Source: Escherichia phage SHIN8. Taken from it: a stretch of DNA of 58,460 bases. This document shows positions 2,107 to 56,672 of this stretch, one piece after another. The notes under the pieces are model-generated. The model did no database searches. It had not been told where the DNA came from and was given only the letters and a program-made list of their open reading frames with translations. The stretch lies in the sequence record PP627280.1; one strand, 5' to 3'. Within the stretch, counting starts at the first letter, position 1, and every line of letters starts with the position of its first letter. Position numbers and translations under genes: made by a program.

Positions 2107-3603
2107 ATGGGTATTGATGCAACTCACCCGCTATATGACAAGTGGAAGGACGCATGGGTTAAGTGCAACGACTGCTATGAGGGTGAAGATAAAATTAAGG
2201 AAGAAGGTGTTAAATATCTACCACCTTTAGCTTCCATGATTATTGATGGGATGAATAATCCTAATGATTTGGGCTTTCAACGTTGGCTCGCTTATCGTCT
2301 GCGTGCTAACTTCCCTGACGATTATTCAAGTGCGGTTACAAACAATTTAGGTCTGCTACACCAGAAGCCTCCTACAATCCAGCTCCCACCTGAAATGGAA
2401 TACATGCGGGAGCTGTGTACTGCGGACGGTGAAGACATTATTGCTCTGCTACGTCGCATCAATGAAATGCAGTTAAAAAATGGACGTTTGGGCCTGCTGC
2501 TGGACTTGCCGAAAGGTGAGGATGTAAATAACAGACCTTATATTAGCGTTTATGATGCTTTATCCATTATCAACTGGGATGATGGTAAAGATGAATTGGG
2601 CAATATCAACTTGAACATGGTTGTTCTGGATGAAAGCGGTCCTGTACGTGTCAATCAGTTTGACTGGAAAGAAGAGAAGCGTTATCGCGTTCTACAATTA
2701 GGTCCAATGGACACAGATGAAGTAGCAGGTGGAGCGGTCTACTCCCAACATCTGTTTATTAACAATACCAATTATGATGAAGGGCAAATGATTGCTCCTT
2801 ATTATAAAGGTAATACGCTGGATGAAATTCCTTTCCAGTTTGTCAATACAACAGATATTACCCCAGCACCGGAAGCGCCGCCATTGTTGGGTCTTGCTAA
2901 CATTTGTCTAAGCATGTACCGAAGTGACGCGGATTACCGCCAATGCTTGCATATGCAGGGTCAGGATACTTTAGTTGTTGTTGGTGGTTCCATGGAAAAT
3001 GGAGATAAAGCCCCTCAGCGTATTGGTCCTGGTGCAGTCATTAACGTTTCTCAGGGAGGTGACGCTAAATATGTAGGTGTTAGCGGTGACGGTTTGTCCG
3101 AGCAACGTCTCGCACTGGCAGCGGATAAGCAGGAAGCCCAAATTAAAGCCGGGCAAATGGTAAACAATACCAAGAGTACGCAGGAATCAGGCGAAGCTAT
3201 GAAAACGCGTATTGCTGCGCGTACAGCTAGTTTGATTCGAATTGCGTATACTGGTGCGGCTGGTTTGGAGAACTTGCTGAAGGTTTGCGCTAAGTGGATG
3301 GGTGCTGATCCCGAGAAAGTTGTGGTCAAGCCTAATCTTGAATTTACCAAGAGCATGTTTAACGGTCAGGACTTTGTTCAAATTATTACTGCACGCAACC
3401 TTAAAGCTCCGATCAGCTTGCAGTCTATTCATGGCTGGCTCGTTGATCAAGGCTTAACCACACTAAGCTTTGAAGAAGAAATGGCAATTCTTGAAGAAGA
3501 GCTTAAGAAGTGGCCTCTGCCCGATGATGCTAAAGCTGATTTAAACGCAGAGCAGCAAGTAAGTAAAGATCCTAAGGAAGACAACGCTTCCGATAAAGAA
3601 TAG
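2107..3603 (+). CDS. portal protein
   Basis: 498 aa, immediately after terL and before scaffold/capsid; acidic C-terminus. Confidence 0.7.
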   Translation: MGIDATHPLYDKWKDAWVKCNDCYEGEDKIKEEGVKYLPPLASMIIDGMNNPNDLGFQRWLAYRLRANFPDDYSSAVTNNLGLLHQKPPTIQLPPEMEYMRELCTADGEDIIALLRRINEMQLKNGRLGLLLDLPKGEDVNNRPYISVYDALSIINWDDGKDELGNINLNMVVLDESGPVRVNQFDWKEEKRYRVLQLGPMDTDEVAGGAVYSQHLFINNTNYDEGQMIAPYYKGNTLDEIPFQFVNTTDITPAPEAPPLLGLANICLSMYRSDADYRQCLHMQGQDTLVVVGGSMENGDKAPQRIGPGAVINVSQGGDAKYVGVSGDGLSEQRLALAADKQEAQIKAGQMVNNTKSTQESGEAMKTRIAARTASLIRIAYTGAAGLENLLKVCAKWMGADPEKVVVKPNLEFTKSMFNGQDFVQIITARNLKAPISLQSIHGWLVDQGLTTLSFEEEMAILEEELKKWPLPDDAKADLNAEQQVSKDPKEDNASDKE

Positions 3604-3698
3604 TTGCAACTTCCAAGTTGATCGGTTTATATTAACGAACACGGGGCTGGGACGGCTCAGCTCCAAAAACGTCACACGGGTGACAACGGAGATAAGAA

Positions 3699-4571
3699 AT
3701 GAAAAAGAGTTCTGTAGCTATTAGTGTTGGTATGGCTTTAATTAATCCACGCGCTCGCGGTGAAGGTGACGTGGAACTGGAATACGAATATGCATCTGCG
3801 GAAGAAATCCCGGCAGAGTTTGCAACTCTTTACGCAGAGCAGGGCGGTAAATACGTTCTTGCAAAAGTTAAAGGTGTAGCCCCCGCTGATAGCGTTCGTC
3901 GTCTGGAAAGTGCATTAGCAAAAGAACGTAACGACCATCGTCAGGTGAAGCAACAGATTAGCGCACTTGGGCGTCCGGTTGAAGAAGTCCTTGCGGACCT
4001 TGATCGTATCCCTCAACTGGAAGCTGCCGCTAACGGTAAAGGTACTCCGGAAGACATCGAAAAGATGGTTAAAGCCCGTCTTGCTCCGCTTGAGCGTCAA
4101 TTGCAAACTGTAGCAGCTGAACGCGATTCCGTTAAGCAGGAAATTGAAGGCTACCGCACTCGCGAAACTAAAGCGAAGATTAAAGACGCAGTTATTGCTG
4201 CTGCATCCGGTGCTAAGCTGCGTCCGTCTGCTATCGAAGATGCGGTGACTTATGCACAGTTGCAAATGACCGTCGACGAGAACGGCAATGTGGTTACGAA
4301 AGATGGGGCGGGTGTAACTCCATACCTAACCCCGGCGGATTGGCTTAACGAGATCCTCCCGAAACGTCCTCACTGGGTTGAAGGATCTGCTGGTGGTGGT
4401 GCATCTGGTCCGGGCGCTGGCGGACATCACGGCGAAGACCCTTACAGTCACGACGGTTGGAACATCTCTAAACAGATGAATCTCTGGAAAACTAATCAAT
4501 CTTTAGCTAAACGCTTAGCTGAAAAGAATGGCGTAGACCCGCTGAAGCCTGTACGTCCTGCTAAGAAATAA
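3699..4571 (+). CDS. head scaffolding protein
   Basis: 290 aa, charged and coiled-coil-like, between portal and major capsid. Confidence 0.55.
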   Translation: MKKSSVAISVGMALINPRARGEGDVELEYEYASAEEIPAEFATLYAEQGGKYVLAKVKGVAPADSVRRLESALAKERNDHRQVKQQISALGRPVEEVLADLDRIPQLEAAANGKGTPEDIEKMVKARLAPLERQLQTVAAERDSVKQEIEGYRTRETKAKIKDAVIAAASGAKLRPSAIEDAVTYAQLQMTVDENGNVVTKDGAGVTPYLTPADWLNEILPKRPHWVEGSAGGGASGPGAGGHHGEDPYSHDGWNISKQMNLWKTNQSLAKRLAEKNGVDPLKPVRPAKK

Positions 4572-4585
4572 GTTGACATCCCGAC

Positions 4586-4618
4586 GTCCCTGATGTTAAG
4601 TTTCAACACATCAGGGAC
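4586..4618 (+). promoter_or_regulatory. perfect 11-bp hairpin between scaffold and capsid genes
   Basis: GTCCCTGATGT-11 nt-ACATCAGGGAC, no T-run; TTGACA hexamer at 4573-4578. Confidence 0.35.
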
Positions 4619-4693
4619 ACGGGTTCCTAAACAGCCTTCCACGGGGAAAGGCTACCAACAGTAAACAAATCAATCCTTTTCCTGGAGACAAGT

Positions 4694-5755
4694 ATGTCTA
4701 AATCTAAAATTATTCTACCATTTGGTCGTGGTGAAACTGACCTGACTCGTTTGAAGGATGTCATTGTCCCTGAGATCTTCACTGGTTATGTGCAGACGCA
4801 GACCGCTGAACTTTCTGCCCTGATCCAATCCGGTGCGGTTGTGATGGACGAGCGTTTATCAGCTAACCTTGCTGGTGCAGGTCTGACTTTTAACGAGCCG
4901 TTCTATAACGACCTGAAAGATGAAGACGAAGATATCGCGGTTGATAAAGGTAATCCGTCAAAACCGTCTAATATCACTACCGGATCTGAAGTTCAGGTTC
5001 GTATGAGTCGTTCAAAATCCTGGGGTTCTGCGGATCTGGTATCAGCTTTGATCGGTAACGACCCAATGACCGCTATCGGTAACCGCGTGTCTGCGTGGTG
5101 GGTTCGCCGTCTGCAAGCTGCATACATCGCAACCTGGAAAGGTGTATTTGCTAATGCGAAGAAATCTCATAACGACGATTTGACTTTCGACATTTCTGGC
5201 GAGTCCTTTACGAATAACCAGACCAACTTTACCGCGTCTAACTTCATCAACGCAACTGCAACGATGGGTGATGCTGCTCGCGGTCTGACCATGATTATGG
5301 TACACTCTACCGTTCGTAACCGTATGCGTCAGTTGAACCTGATCGACTTCATTCCAGATGCTCGCGGTGAAACTCAGTTTGAGTATTATCAGGGTCTGCG
5401 TATTATTGAAGACGACTCCATGCCGCACGATCCGTCTACTGGTATCTTTGAAAGCTGGCTGTTCGGCCCGGGCGCTACTGCAATGGGTGCTGGTTCACCG
5501 AAAGTTCCGACCGCCGTGGTTCGTGACGAAGCCGCTAACCAAGGCGCTGGTGAAGAAGTTCTTCACAACCGTGTTGAATGGATTCTGCATCCGGTTGGCC
5601 ATGCTTGGGCTGCTGCTCAAACTGCTAAAGGTGGTCCGTCTAACGCTGCTACCACTAACAACCTGGCCCATGTAGATTCCTGGCGTCGTGCGTTCCCTGA
5701 GCGCAAGCAGCTTAAAGTTGCACGCCTGATCACTCGTGAGTATCAGGGTTCCTAA
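4694..5755 (+). CDS. major capsid protein
   Basis: 353 aa after scaffold; followed by a strong intrinsic terminator. Confidence 0.7.
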   Translation: MSKSKIILPFGRGETDLTRLKDVIVPEIFTGYVQTQTAELSALIQSGAVVMDERLSANLAGAGLTFNEPFYNDLKDEDEDIAVDKGNPSKPSNITTGSEVQVRMSRSKSWGSADLVSALIGNDPMTAIGNRVSAWWVRRLQAAYIATWKGVFANAKKSHNDDLTFDISGESFTNNQTNFTASNFINATATMGDAARGLTMIMVHSTVRNRMRQLNLIDFIPDARGETQFEYYQGLRIIEDDSMPHDPSTGIFESWLFGPGATAMGAGSPKVPTAVVRDEAANQGAGEEVLHNRVEWILHPVGHAWAAAQTAKGGPSNAATTNNLAHVDSWRRAFPERKQLKVARLITREYQGS

Positions 5756-53909: not shown

Positions 53910-53977
53910 TTGAAGAAAATATCAAATATTGGAAAGGCTTTATTGACGAAATGTTGAAACCATTGGAGAAGAAATAA
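53903..53977 (+). CDS. 24-aa micro-ORF translationally coupled on both sides
   Basis: ATGGTGA overlap with upstream stop and TAATG overlap with downstream start. Confidence 0.25.
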   Translation: MVIEENIKYWKGFIDEMLKPLEKK

Positions 53978-54369
53978 TGCTATTAGTCGTCACCGGAGGT
54001 CGAGATTTTAAGCATGTGGAGTATATTTACGCTCAATTGGATAAGCTGCATATGCAAAGAAGGATAACCACACTTCGCCACGGTGACGCTGACGGTGTTG
54101 ACCGGATTTGCGCACATTGGGCAGAGCGCAACGGTATTAAGACAGAAGCGTTCCCTGCCCCGTGGGACAATCTTTCCTTACCAAATACAAAGATACGGTA
54201 TAACGCCAAGGGTGCTTATAATGCACAAGCTGGCGCTTACCGCAATCAATTGATGCTGGATACTGATCCTAAACCAGATCACGCTATTGTATTTCCTGGC
54301 GGAGCTGGTACTATGGATATGTACAGACGGATTAAAGCATCCGGTATTCCTTACACTTTAGCGGAGTAA
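53977..54369 (+). CDS. Rossmann-fold nucleotide-binding protein (SLOG/DprA-like, putative)
   Basis: 130 aa; LVVTGGRDF, HGDADGVD, IVFPGGAGT glycine-rich motifs. Confidence 0.4.
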   Translation: MLLVVTGGRDFKHVEYIYAQLDKLHMQRRITTLRHGDADGVDRICAHWAERNGIKTEAFPAPWDNLSLPNTKIRYNAKGAYNAQAGAYRNQLMLDTDPKPDHAIVFPGGAGTMDMYRRIKASGIPYTLAE

Positions 54370-54844: not shown

Positions 54845-55051
54845 ATGGAAACTCCATTAGCTAAACAAATGATAGAGCGTGCGGATCGGGACGGTTTACC
54901 GGAAGACCATGCTATGCGTCGAACCGCCCAAGTGTTTGACGAGATTAGCGTTAAATATGCTATGGGTAAGAGCACCCCTAAAGCCTTATTAGGTGCTTGG
55001 GCTCGCGCTCGACGCTGCTGGTGTAACTATACCGGAGAACAGCTTATATGA
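54845..55051 (+). CDS. hypothetical protein
   Basis: 68-aa ORF. Confidence 0.35.
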   Translation: METPLAKQMIERADRDGLPEDHAMRRTAQVFDEISVKYAMGKSTPKALLGAWARARRCWCNYTGEQLI

Positions 55052-55470
55052 TCAAACACGTTAAACAGCCAACGTTGAATACATGCGTTTCCGCGTGTTT
55101 GGCAATGATCCTTAATAAACCTGTTGAGACGGTTATTAAGGAATTTCACAGTCGTTATTATAACAACTGGGAAATCACTATCAGCGAATATTTGACTAAA
55201 AACGGCGTCCAGCATCATTGTTCAGAAGGTGGTGGGCGTGAAACTTTGCATATGGGAGGTTTGTTCCTGTGCACGGTGCCAAGTCTTAATATTCCTGGCG
55301 CATTGCACCAGATTGTGATTGATATGACGGATCACAAGTTTATTGTGCATGATCCAATTAAAGGATGGGAAGGTAAAAAGTTCTATGTTGGTCCGGATCA
55401 AGATCCTGAAGAGCCTGGAGCTTTTATCATTCATACTTGGGTCAAAGACGTTGAAATCCTGCTTTATTAA
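55048..55470 (+). CDS. papain-fold cysteine peptidase (C39-like domain, putative)
   Basis: 140 aa; QPTLNTCVSACLAMIL N-terminal Cys motif and HQIVIDMTDHKFIVHDP His motif. Confidence 0.45.
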   Translation: MIKHVKQPTLNTCVSACLAMILNKPVETVIKEFHSRYYNNWEITISEYLTKNGVQHHCSEGGGRETLHMGGLFLCTVPSLNIPGALHQIVIDMTDHKFIVHDPIKGWEGKKFYVGPDQDPEEPGAFIIHTWVKDVEILLY

Positions 55471-55500: not shown

Positions 55501-55534
55501 ATTGTGTACCCATCGAATAAGAGGGGTACACAAT
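55501..55534 (+). promoter_or_regulatory. perfect 11-bp hairpin occluding RBS/start codon of downstream membrane-protein gene
   Basis: ATTGTGTACCC-12 nt-GGGTACACAAT; 3' arm includes the first two bases of the ATG at 55533. Confidence 0.4.
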
Positions 55535-55718
55535 GACCAAACTATACGCCGGATTGTTTTTATTTGCGACGTTGATGTTCGCTGGGCTTTATACCTATAC
55601 AGTAGTCGAACAACCTTCCACGGTTATCCGAATCTTTGCAAGTACAGGGCTTTGCATCTGTCTTATTCTATTTGTTTTATGCATTGTTATTATCCAAGAC
55701 CAAAGGAAAGTTAAATGA
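55533..55718 (+). CDS. small two-helix membrane protein
   Basis: 61 aa, two hydrophobic segments. Confidence 0.45.
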   Translation: MTKLYAGLFLFATLMFAGLYTYTVVEQPSTVIRIFASTGLCICLILFVLCIVIIQDQRKVK

Positions 55719-56179
55719 CCACAATTGCGTTTGATGGAAAAGTATTAGCTGCGGACCGTGGAGTTATGCGCGGGGAAGCTGTGACTGCTTATAAGAAAGT
55801 TCATAGCGTGAATGGACATCGTGGACGGTTTTTACTGGGCTTGTGCGGTTTGACGGCATTTACCGATCAGGTGTTGCGTTATTTTAATAGCGCGGAACCT
55901 GTTAAGTTCCCTGATATTAAACTTTACAGTAAAGATGATGATTACGGGCAAACTTGCGGTCTTGCTGTCACTCCGGAAGGTACTTGCCATTTTATTTATA
56001 ATGATGGTACTTTGAGTGAGCCCATGCTGGATGGATGGGGATCTGAGGGTAGCGGTTGTGTGTTTGCTGCTGGTGCATTAGCTGCTGGTGCAAGTGCGAG
56101 CGAAGCTATTGAGCTGGCAATTAAACACACCACATGTGCATTCCTGGGAGTTGATACAATATCGTTTGAGGGTTTTTAA
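55715..56179 (+). CDS. HslV-like Ntn-hydrolase (proteasome beta-subunit-like peptidase, putative)
   Basis: 154 aa; N-terminal MTTIAF (Thr after Met), KKV, GLCGLTAFTDQVLRYF and GSEGSG segments parallel HslV. Confidence 0.5.
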   Translation: MTTIAFDGKVLAADRGVMRGEAVTAYKKVHSVNGHRGRFLLGLCGLTAFTDQVLRYFNSAEPVKFPDIKLYSKDDDYGQTCGLAVTPEGTCHFIYNDGTLSEPMLDGWGSEGSGCVFAAGALAAGASASEAIELAIKHTTCAFLGVDTISFEGF

Positions 56180-56180
56180 A

Positions 56181-56672
56181 ATGGAATGGTCTTCCATATT
56201 CACTTATTTGGATGGAAAGCTGTTCTGGAAAACTTCTAGAGGCGGTAGAGTTATACCAGGAGCACTTGCTGGTCATGCTACAAAGAGGGGTTACGTCAAA
56301 ATACGATGCGGTTGTAGTTTCTATCTAAGGCATCGCATAGTATGGGAAATGCATAATGGGTCCATTCCCGAAAATATGCAAATAGATCATATTAATCACG
56401 TTCCTGGAGATGATAGGATAGAGAATCTTAGATTAGTTACAAGTACATTAAATAATAGGAACGTAACCAGATCTAAGCTTAATAAGTCTGGTGTTACTGG
56501 TGTTTGCTATCACAAAAGAAATAAAAGATGGATAGCTTATATTAATACACAGGTCGGTCAAGTAAGACTTGGCTCTTTTATTAATTTTGAAGATGCTGTC
56601 AATGCTCGTAAAAATGCTGAGATTGTATATGAATACCACGAGAATCATGGAACTGAACGTAAGAGTTTTTGA
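56181..56672 (+). CDS. HNH homing endonuclease with AP2-like domain
   Basis: track ORF trimmed to ATG 56181; HRIVW...IDHINHVPGDDRIENLR HNH_3-type motif. Confidence 0.65.
   Translation: MEWSSIFTYLDGKLFWKTSRGGRVIPGALAGHATKRGYVKIRCGCSFYLRHRIVWEMHNGSIPENMQIDHINHVPGDDRIENLRLVTSTLNNRNVTRSKLNKSGVTGVCYHKRNKRWIAYINTQVGQVRLGSFINFEDAVNARKNAEIVYEYHENHGTERKSF

What the first reader, a model, noticed from the sequence alone, without database searches (positions are those of the whole stretch)
55715..56179. Phage-encoded HslV-like proteasome-type peptidase
The 154-aa product starts MTTIAF, with Thr directly after the initiator Met as in Ntn hydrolases. Over its length it parallels bacterial HslV segments (KKV; G-x-x-G-x-T-A-x-x-x-x-L; GSxGSG near the C-terminus). 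A self-compartmentalising protease subunit without an obvious HslU partner in a phage genome is unusual.
Basis: inference. Interest (0 to 1): 0.7.

Follow-up and report, generated by a model that had tools for sequence, protein, structure and literature searches.

The report
Phage mini-proteasome subunit (PPH family)
This phage gene really does encode a small proteasome/HslV-type threonine peptidase with an intact active site, but it belongs to a family (PPH) that was already described in 2021 as widespread in phages and is already annotated in reference genomes, and what it does is still unknown.

Summary
The ORF at 55715..56179 (+, 154 aa, MTTIAF…) is real and under strong purifying selection (dN/dS ≤0.03). 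The window is a Seuratvirus (Queuovirinae) E. coli siphophage. Identical proteins in phages CAjan and Seurat are already annotated "peptidase HslV family".

It is not an HslV orthologue. NCBIfam's HslV models give no hit, helix H2 is missing along with the HslU-tail pocket residues, and neither the phage nor 51 PPH lineages carry an associated ATPase.

Function is unknown. The most likely reading is an HslU-independent Thr peptidase, made in the operon that ends at the lysis cassette.

In passing: an unannotated C39-type cysteine peptidase two genes upstream stays linked to PPH across this phage group.

The parts
55715..56179 (+). CDS of the PPH-family proteasome-like threonine peptidase (154 aa)
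55718..55720 (+). Codon of Thr2, the predicted N-terminal nucleophile (Thr1 after removal of Met1 by host methionine aminopeptidase)
   Evidence: Aligns to HslV Thr1. T in 74/74 viral homologues (this position was part of the search pattern). T in 141 and S in 10 of 151 independently selected sequences. Met removal is inferred from the known specificity of MetAP for a small second residue.
55754..55756 (+). Codon of Asp14 (equivalent to proteasome/HslV Asp17)
   Evidence: hhalign register. D in 74/74 and 150/151.
55796..55798 (+). Codon of Lys28 (equivalent to Lys33)
   Evidence: hhalign register. K in 74/74 and 150/151.
55838..55849 (+). G42-L-C-G45: the oxyanion-hole position (equivalent to proteasome Gly47 / HslV Gly45) and the start of helix H1
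   Evidence: register. Position 42 is G or A only in the viral set and G 106 / A 40 of 151. G45 is 151/151.
55889..55951 (+). Residues 59-79: an ordered loop (pLDDT 95-98) that replaces helix H2 of HslV/proteasome beta
   Evidence: DSSP of the model shows H1 at 47-58 and then no helix until strand 80-85. There is a large gap opposite HslV residues ~62-90 in hhalign. Lack of H2 is the published hallmark of PPH/RPC.
56048..56056 (+). G112-S113-G114 loop (equivalent to proteasome Gly128-Ser129-Gly130)
   Evidence: alignments. G112 and G114 are 151/151 and S113 is 130/151.
55533..55718 (+). Upstream 61-aa ORF with two hydrophobic segments, whose stop overlaps the PPH start (ATGA). Same operon, probably translationally coupled. 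Not conserved with PPH outside Seuratvirus.
   Evidence: phrog_22841, unknown function. No neighbour family is shared broadly.
55048..55470 (+). Co-conserved C39-type (papain-fold) cysteine peptidase, 140 aa, two genes upstream. Linked to PPH throughout this phage group.

Best explanation
[quoted passage not shown] This is a minimal proteasome-beta/HslV-type Ntn threonine peptidase carried by many tailed phages.

Shown here:
- It has the proteasome-like fold.
- It begins Met-Thr with no propeptide.
- It keeps the Thr1/Asp17/Lys33 triad, the oxyanion-hole position and the G-S-G loop under strict conservation.
- It lacks helix H2, the basic pore cluster, and the residues that form the HslU C-tail pocket of HslV.
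- Neither this phage nor other PPH lineages carry a linked AAA+ ATPase.

Inferred:
- Host methionine aminopeptidase removes Met1 and exposes Thr2 as the nucleophile.
- The subunit self-assembles. The very conserved small-residue faces of helices H3/H4 (A118, A121, G125, A128, A131, A135) are candidates for the ring-ring contact, as in HslV and proteasome beta.
- It cleaves peptides or unfolded/specific proteins in the infected cell without HslU.
- It is co-expressed with the rightward operon that runs into the lysis cassette.

The physiological substrate is unknown.
For: Homology and fold:
- Profile hits to solved HslV (E 2.5e-9), BPH and proteasome beta5.
- AF2 model pLDDT 95.6, pTM 0.90.
- Foldseek probability 1.00 to HslV and beta5.
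- hhalign versus E. coli HslV, probability 92%.

Active site:
- T2, D14, K28 and G112 are invariant in 74/74 unique viral homologues.
- In 150 independently selected cluster representatives plus the window protein: T141/S10; D14 and K28 150/151; G45, G112 and G114 151/151.
- dN/dS <=0.03.

PPH features:
- Length is 154 aa, with a family median of 148.
- H2 is absent and the chain ends right after the last strand.
- All homologues start MT or MS.
- These match the published description.

No ATPase partner:
- The CAjan genome annotation has no unfoldase.
- The window neighbours have none.
- No neighbour family is present in more than 10 of 51 PPH lineages.
- Fuchs et al. likewise found no co-occurring AAA+.

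Not HslU-adapted:
- NCBIfam HslV equivalogs give no hit.
- The HslV pocket residues F54, F57, A79/K80 and Q114, and the R86/R89/K90 cluster, are either substituted (F54->D51, F57->L54 in the register) or lie in the deleted H2 region.
Against: - No biochemical activity has been shown for any PPH.
- The closest ATPase-less relative, BPH, was inert on standard peptides and casein, so generic peptidase activity cannot be assumed.
- Oligomeric state could not be tested here, because no multimer modelling was available. Fuchs et al. note that some new homologues may not form rings.
- Loss of H2 could expose a surface used to bind an unknown partner.
- Expression timing is inferred from gene order only. 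The promoter and terminator scans were not above chance.
- Direct clustering with the published PPH reference set could not be done.
Confidence: 0.62

Rival explanations
1. It is a functional HslV substitute that docks onto the host's HslU (ClpY) ATPase. It would either build a hybrid ATP-dependent protease with phage-chosen specificity or titrate HslU away from host HslV.
For: The best sequence and structure matches are HslV. The host E. coli encodes hslVU. According to Fuchs et al., PPH is found mainly in Proteobacteria, and from my own knowledge (not tested here) HslU is common in that phylum. The phage has no ATPase of its own.
Against: Curated HslV models give no hit, against 304 bits for the control. 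H2 is missing. The HslU-tail pocket residues F54, F57, A79/K80 and Q114 and the R86/R89/K90 cluster are not retained. BPH, the related HslV descendant, did not pull down HslU.
Confidence: 0.12
2. It is a non-canonical head-maturation protease (scaffold or capsid processing) for phages that lack a classical prohead protease.
For: The head module here is portal, then scaffold, then major capsid protein, with no detectable protease domain (CAjan annotation). In many other lineages the PPH gene lies next to or inside the packaging/head module. Examples are TerL-portal-PPH-MuF in L017, TerS-TerL-PPH in L042, TerL...PPH-893 aa...capsid in a prophage, and after scaffold/MCP in L090.
Against: In this phage group the gene is separated from the head genes by the whole lysis cassette. 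Its position relative to head genes varies, as expected for an accessory gene at a module border. It has no extension for targeting into procapsids. Scaffold-only heads without proteolysis are common (established knowledge of P22/SPP1-type assembly). In one context it sits between tail genes and the integrase.
Confidence: 0.07
3. It is a monomeric or small-oligomer, sequence-specific processing enzyme or ligase, as connectase is within the same superfamily, rather than a chambered protease.
For: Loss of a flanking helix recalls connectase, which lacks H1/H2. BPH is inert on generic substrates. In this phage group it is tightly linked to a second, typically sequence-specific peptidase (C39 type).
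Confidence: 0.12
4. It is a catalytically dead decoy or scaffold, for example a poison subunit for host HslV.
For: The single sequence falls below the Pfam threshold. No activity is known for the family.
Against: The full catalytic set is invariant across thousands of divergent clusters. That is not expected for a pseudoenzyme.
Confidence: 0.03

Closest known systems
[quoted passage not shown]
   Same: A compact subunit of ~140-150 aa. It has no propeptide, no helix H2 and no C-terminal S12/H5. It has the Thr1/Asp17/Lys33 triad and the Gly47 position. It is found in tailed phages and prophages of Proteobacteria, has no linked AAA+ ATPase, and is of unknown function.
   Different: Nothing tested differs. 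At 154 aa it is at the long end of the family. Direct clustering with the authors' sequence set could not be run.
HslV (ClpQ), protease subunit of HslVU
   Different: About 20 residues shorter. It lacks H2, the R86/R89/K90 pore cluster and the HslU-tail pocket residues. It gives no hit to curated HslV models and has no adjacent hslU.
BPH (Betaproteobacteria proteasome homolog)
   Different: BPH is ~185-200 aa, keeps H1-H4, and has a long acidic pore loop. It is chromosomal and forms heptameric double rings.
20S proteasome beta subunits
   Different: Beta subunits carry propeptides and H2/H5, and they assemble with alpha rings. None of these applies here.
Connectase
   Same: A proteasome-superfamily member that has lost flanking helices and works without an ATPase.

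Membership tests
PPH (Fuchs et al. 2021) | Compact subunit of ~140 residues without insertions | tested here: met
   154 aa. The viral homologues are 137-171 aa. The 150 best cluster representatives have a median of 148 aa.
PPH (Fuchs et al. 2021) | Second flanking helix (H2) absent | tested here: met
   The AF2 model shows H1 at 47-58, then an ordered loop at 59-79, and no H2. There is a gap opposite HslV H2 in hhalign. The criterion is stated.
PPH (Fuchs et al. 2021) | No propeptide; nucleophile directly after Met1 | tested here: met
   The protein starts MTT. 133 of 150 representatives start MT and 10 start MS.
PPH (Fuchs et al. 2021) | Catalytic triad Thr1/Asp17/Lys33 and the Gly47 position | tested here: met
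   T2, D14, K28 and G42 in the register. Conservation.
PPH (Fuchs et al. 2021) | No C-terminal S12/H5 elements or extra domain (distinguishes it from RPC) | tested here: met
   The model ends with strand 146-149 plus 5 residues.
PPH (Fuchs et al. 2021) | Encoded by Caudovirales phages or prophages | tested here: met
   The window is a Seuratvirus. Homologues occur in 59 phage records and 140 viral contigs. A prophage copy was also found.
PPH (Fuchs et al. 2021) | Clusters with the authors' PPH reference sequences (CLANS map / KEGG OC.1434257) | not testable with these tools
   The reference set (Mendeley t48yhff7hs/3) is not available here, and the held supplement has no sequence list.
HslV (NCBIfam TIGR03692 / PRK05456; MEROPS T1B) | Scores above the curated cut-off of the HslV equivalog models | tested here: not met
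   No HslV model is reported at E<=1. The E. coli HslV control scores 303.8 and 288.2 bits.
HslV (NCBIfam TIGR03692 / PRK05456; MEROPS T1B) | N-terminal Thr nucleophile with Lys33, Asp17, Gly45 and the G-S-G loop | tested here: met
HslV (NCBIfam TIGR03692 / PRK05456; MEROPS T1B) | H1+H2 helices carrying the HslU C-tail pocket (F54, F57, A79/K80, Q114) and the R86/R89/K90 pore cluster | tested here: not met
   H2 is absent. F54->D51 and F57->L54, and the 79-90 region is deleted.
HslV (NCBIfam TIGR03692 / PRK05456; MEROPS T1B) | Cognate hslU encoded alongside | tested here: not met
   No AAA+ unfoldase appears in the reference relative's genome, in the window neighbours, or recurrently near PPH.
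HslV (NCBIfam TIGR03692 / PRK05456; MEROPS T1B) | Dodecamer of two hexameric rings | not testable with these tools
   Only monomer prediction was available.
Pfam PF00227 Proteasome | Score at or above the gathering threshold (22.4 bits) | tested here: not met
   15.4 bits, E 0.015, over residues 7-58 only. Superfamily homology is nevertheless established by profile and fold.
BPH | ~185-200 aa subunit with H1-H4 and an elongated acidic pore loop after H2 | tested here: not met
   154 aa with no H2. BPH features are described.

The most novel reading that the evidence does not exclude
In Queuovirinae-like phages the PPH mini-proteasome subunit and the co-conserved, previously unannotated C39/deubiquitinase-like cysteine peptidase form a dedicated two-protease module. 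They sit in one operon and overlap by 4 nt in Providencia phage PSTCR7. The module would act on specific host or phage proteins late in infection, for example by removing and destroying a host defence factor or conjugate. Alternatively, PPH would act as a new, Ntn-type head-maturation protease in phages that lack a classical prohead protease. Neither reading is excluded by the data, and neither has direct support.
Probability: 0.08. Interest if true: 0.75.

Novelty: already known. Interest (0 to 1): 0.3.

Why it matters
PPH is an abundant phage-borne proteasome relative. The profile found about 7,900 clusters at 50% identity (E<=1e-10), and the active site is strictly conserved, yet no substrate, partner or phenotype is known. 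This window adds no new kind of object.

It does place a PPH in phages that grow on E. coli K-12. Several BASEL-collection Seuratvirus phages encode the same protein at 98.7-100% identity. That makes the open question genetically tractable through a T2A or deletion mutant, host protease and unfoldase knock-outs, and N-terminomics.

The conserved linkage to a second, unannotated C39-type peptidase gives a concrete hypothesis to test.

Tried and rejected
- The single-sequence search against PDB sequences found nothing meaningful. Pfam was below threshold. Only the family profile and the structure gave significance.
- NCBIfam gave no HslV or proteasome hit.
- PADLOC defence models gave no hit for PPH or three neighbours.
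- A search for a conserved partner was negative. I called ORFs in 84 loci covering 51 PPH lineages and clustered the neighbours by BLAST. No family occurred in more than 10 lineages, and the recurrent ones are terminase, portal, scaffold, MuF and endolysin, which are module neighbours rather than partners.
- The promoter and terminator scan was not above shuffled expectation (17 found versus 19.7 expected; 10 versus 6.4), so it was not used to define the transcription unit.
- Literature searches found no functional work on phage PPH/HslV-like proteins beyond Fuchs et al. 2021. One query was badly chosen and wasted.
- The CAjan characterisation paper, which has virion proteomics, is not held. 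Two related phage papers contain nothing on this gene.
- Considered and rejected: a role in the 7-deazaguanine DNA-modification pathway. Ntn amidotransferases use Cys1, not a Thr1/Lys33/Asp17 set, and the gene is more than 20 kb from the que/dpdA cluster.
- Multimer modelling was not possible with the tools allowed.

Full report
**Observation.** The ORF exists exactly as described. It runs 55715..56179 on the + strand, starts at an ATG, encodes 154 aa beginning MTTIAFDGKVLAADRG, and ends at TAA. An AGGA Shine-Dalgarno lies 7 nt upstream. The start codon overlaps the stop of a 61-aa upstream ORF (ATGA), so the two are in one operon (sequence). The gene is real and constrained. Against three close relatives it shows 10-21 synonymous but only 0-1 nonsynonymous differences, giving dN/dS ≤0.03.

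**What the window is.** The 54-58 kb region is 96-98% identical to Escherichia phages SLUR76, slur01, CAjan, Seurat and several BASEL-collection phages. These belong to genus Seuratvirus, subfamily Queuovirinae. The same protein at 100% identity is CAjan gp86. RefSeq annotates it "peptidase HslV family", the original submitters called it "putative protease", and other records use "protease", "ATP-dependent protease" or "proteasome subunit alpha type-2".

**Homology.** The single sequence is weak. Pfam Proteasome scores 15.4 bits, below the 22.4-bit cut-off, and phmmer finds nothing significant in the PDB. PHROG 1040 "peptidase HslV family" matches at E 5e-32.

A 22-sequence family profile hits solved HslV structures at E 2.5e-9 to 5e-6, BPH at 4e-6, and proteasome β subunits at about 1e-6 to 1e-3. 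Profile-profile comparison with authentic E. coli HslV, fetched, gives 92% probability and E 5e-7.

**Active site.** In the hhalign register, residues map as follows:

| Phage residue | HslV / proteasome equivalent |
|---|---|
| T2 | Thr1 |
| D14 | Asp17 |
| K28 | Lys33 |
| G42 | HslV Gly45 / proteasome Gly47 |
| G112-S113-G114 | G-S-G loop |

Across 74 unique homologues from viral contigs and phage records, T2, D14, K28 and G112 are invariant. The N-terminal motif was the search pattern there, but D14, K28 and G112 were not.

An exhaustive profile search of 1.84 billion cluster representatives found 11,461 hits at E≤1e-3 and 7,900 at E≤1e-10. I aligned the window protein with the 150 best, which were not selected by any motif. 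In those 151 sequences the nucleophile is Thr in 141 and Ser in 10. Asp14 and Lys28 are each 150/151. G45, G112 and G114 are 151/151. The median length of the 150 representatives is 148 aa.

This is the signature of an active enzyme, not a decayed one. Exposure of Thr by host methionine aminopeptidase is inferred from that enzyme's known specificity.

**Why it is not HslV.**
- NCBIfam's curated HslV equivalog models report nothing for the phage protein, while E. coli HslV scores 304 and 288 bits in the same call.
- The model has helix H1 (47-58) followed by a well-ordered loop (59-79) instead of helix H2. hhalign places a large gap opposite HslV residues of about 62-90.
- That region carries Ala79/Lys80 of the HslU C-tail pocket and the Arg86/Arg89/Lys90 pore cluster. 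The pocket residues Phe54 and Phe57 correspond to Asp51 and Leu54 here (residue lists; register).
- No AAA+ unfoldase is annotated in the reference relative's genome or found among the window's neighbours.

[quoted passage not shown] PPH has about 140 residues and occurs in Caudovirales and in prophage regions of their hosts. It belongs to group I, radiating from BPH next to HslV. It lacks H2, has no propeptide and no S12/H5 elements, and has an intact triad. The authors found no co-occurring AAA+ and no informative gene context, and the function is unknown.

Every feature I could test is met; see the membership table. The one feature I could not test is direct clustering with their reference set, which is not available here. 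I found no later paper that characterises PPH.

**Distribution and context.** tblastn finds the protein in 59 phage records:

| Group | Identity to the window protein |
|---|---|
| Seuratvirus relatives | ≥96% |
| Salmonella STP-SP5 | 70% |
| Hafnia yong3 | 63% |
| Nonagvirus (JenP1/JenK1/SE1) | 30-36% |
| Providencia Craquatrovirus | 35-39% |
| Ralstonia QkW1 | 38% |

Klebsiella phage relatives also carry it.

In the Seurat-, Nonag-, Craquatro- and Klebsiella-phage genomes the gene is at or near the end of a rightward block of small genes, immediately upstream of the lysis cassette and terminase.

Across 84 loci representing 51 PPH lineages at 60% identity, no neighbouring protein family occurs in more than 10 lineages. 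The recurrent families are terminase large and small subunits, portal, scaffold, MuF-like and endolysin. Additional contexts show PPH in four different positions:
- just before TerS/TerL/portal;
- between terminase and an 893-aa protein in a prophage of a 4.3-Mb genome;
- after scaffold and capsid genes;
- between tail genes and an integrase.

PPH genes therefore tend to sit in or beside late modules and point the same way, but they have no fixed partner. This agrees with the published conclusion.

**Mechanism.**

*Shown:* the fold, the intact catalytic set, the lack of a propeptide, the lack of H2 and of the HslU-pocket residues, and the lack of an encoded ATPase.

*Inferred:* I judge an HslU-independent, self-assembling Thr peptidase made from the operon that ends in the lysis genes to be the most likely reading. 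The most conserved non-catalytic segment is the H3/H4 pair, with small residues at A118, A121, G125, A128, A131 and A135. These are the helices that make ring-ring contacts in proteasome β. This argues for retained oligomerisation, but I could not model multimers. The family assignment deserves ≥0.9 confidence and the mechanism about 0.45.

*Caveats:* BPH, the nearest ATPase-less relative, was inert on standard substrates. Fuchs et al. warn that some new homologues may not form rings.

*Rivals:*
- Hijacking of host HslU.
- A non-canonical head-maturation protease. The head module here is portal, scaffold and capsid with no detectable protease, but PPH is separated from it by the lysis cassette.
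- A connectase-like specific processing enzyme.
- An inert decoy.

This second peptidase accompanies PPH in Seuratvirus, Nonagvirus, the Klebsiella relatives and Providencia phage PSTCR7, where the two genes overlap by 4 nt. It is absent from the other PPH lineages. Its homologues in unrelated phages sit in early or DNA-modification regions with no PPH within 7 kb. The linkage is therefore lineage-specific. It may be simple inherited synteny or a functional pair.

**Verdict.** The object is an already described and already annotated family member of unknown function. Interest is modest (0.3). Its value lies in offering a K-12-tractable model for an abundant, uncharacterised phage protease family.

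Noticed in passing
[not shown]
   Followed up: yes
window 56181..56672 (+): An HNH homing endonuclease (PF13392, E 1.5e-19, plus a weak AP2-like segment) starts one base after the PPH stop codon. It is present in SLUR76, SLUR26 and SA126VB. At this site it is absent from CAjan, and Seurat and many other relatives lack part of this region (75-80% coverage). This fits a mobile insertion.
   Followed up: partly
window 55504..55531, just upstream of the 61-aa ORF 55533..55718: A perfect 8-bp inverted repeat, GTGTACCC-N12-GGGTACAC. Its loop and right arm cover the AAGAGGGG ribosome-binding region of the small membrane-like ORF that is translationally coupled to PPH. It could form an RNA hairpin that masks the RBS. 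It is not followed by a T-run, so it is not a typical terminator (sequence).
   Followed up: no
window 53977..54369 (+): A 130-aa SLOG-family protein (PF10686 YspA/cpYpsA-related, E 4.9e-18). Different phage records annotate it inconsistently as 'GTP-binding domain' or 'phosphoribosyl transferase'.
   Followed up: no
window 2107..5755 (+): The head module is portal (2107..3603), a 290-aa scaffold (3699..4571) and the major capsid protein (4694..5755). No recognisable prohead protease domain is found by Pfam or PHROGs.
   Followed up: partly
P0044-P0187 (one search set): Ten of the 150 best PPH cluster representatives have Ser instead of Thr as the N-terminal nucleophile, as described for some BPH and for CodW. 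Thirteen are longer than 180 aa, with C-terminal extensions that may correspond to the published RPC group.
   Followed up: no
L018..L087 viral loci; L088, L089, L090: PPH genes are often within a few genes of terminase, portal or scaffold genes and point the same way. Examples are L017 (TerL-portal-PPH-MuF) and L042 (TerS-TerL-PPH). The exact position varies between lineages.
   Followed up: partly
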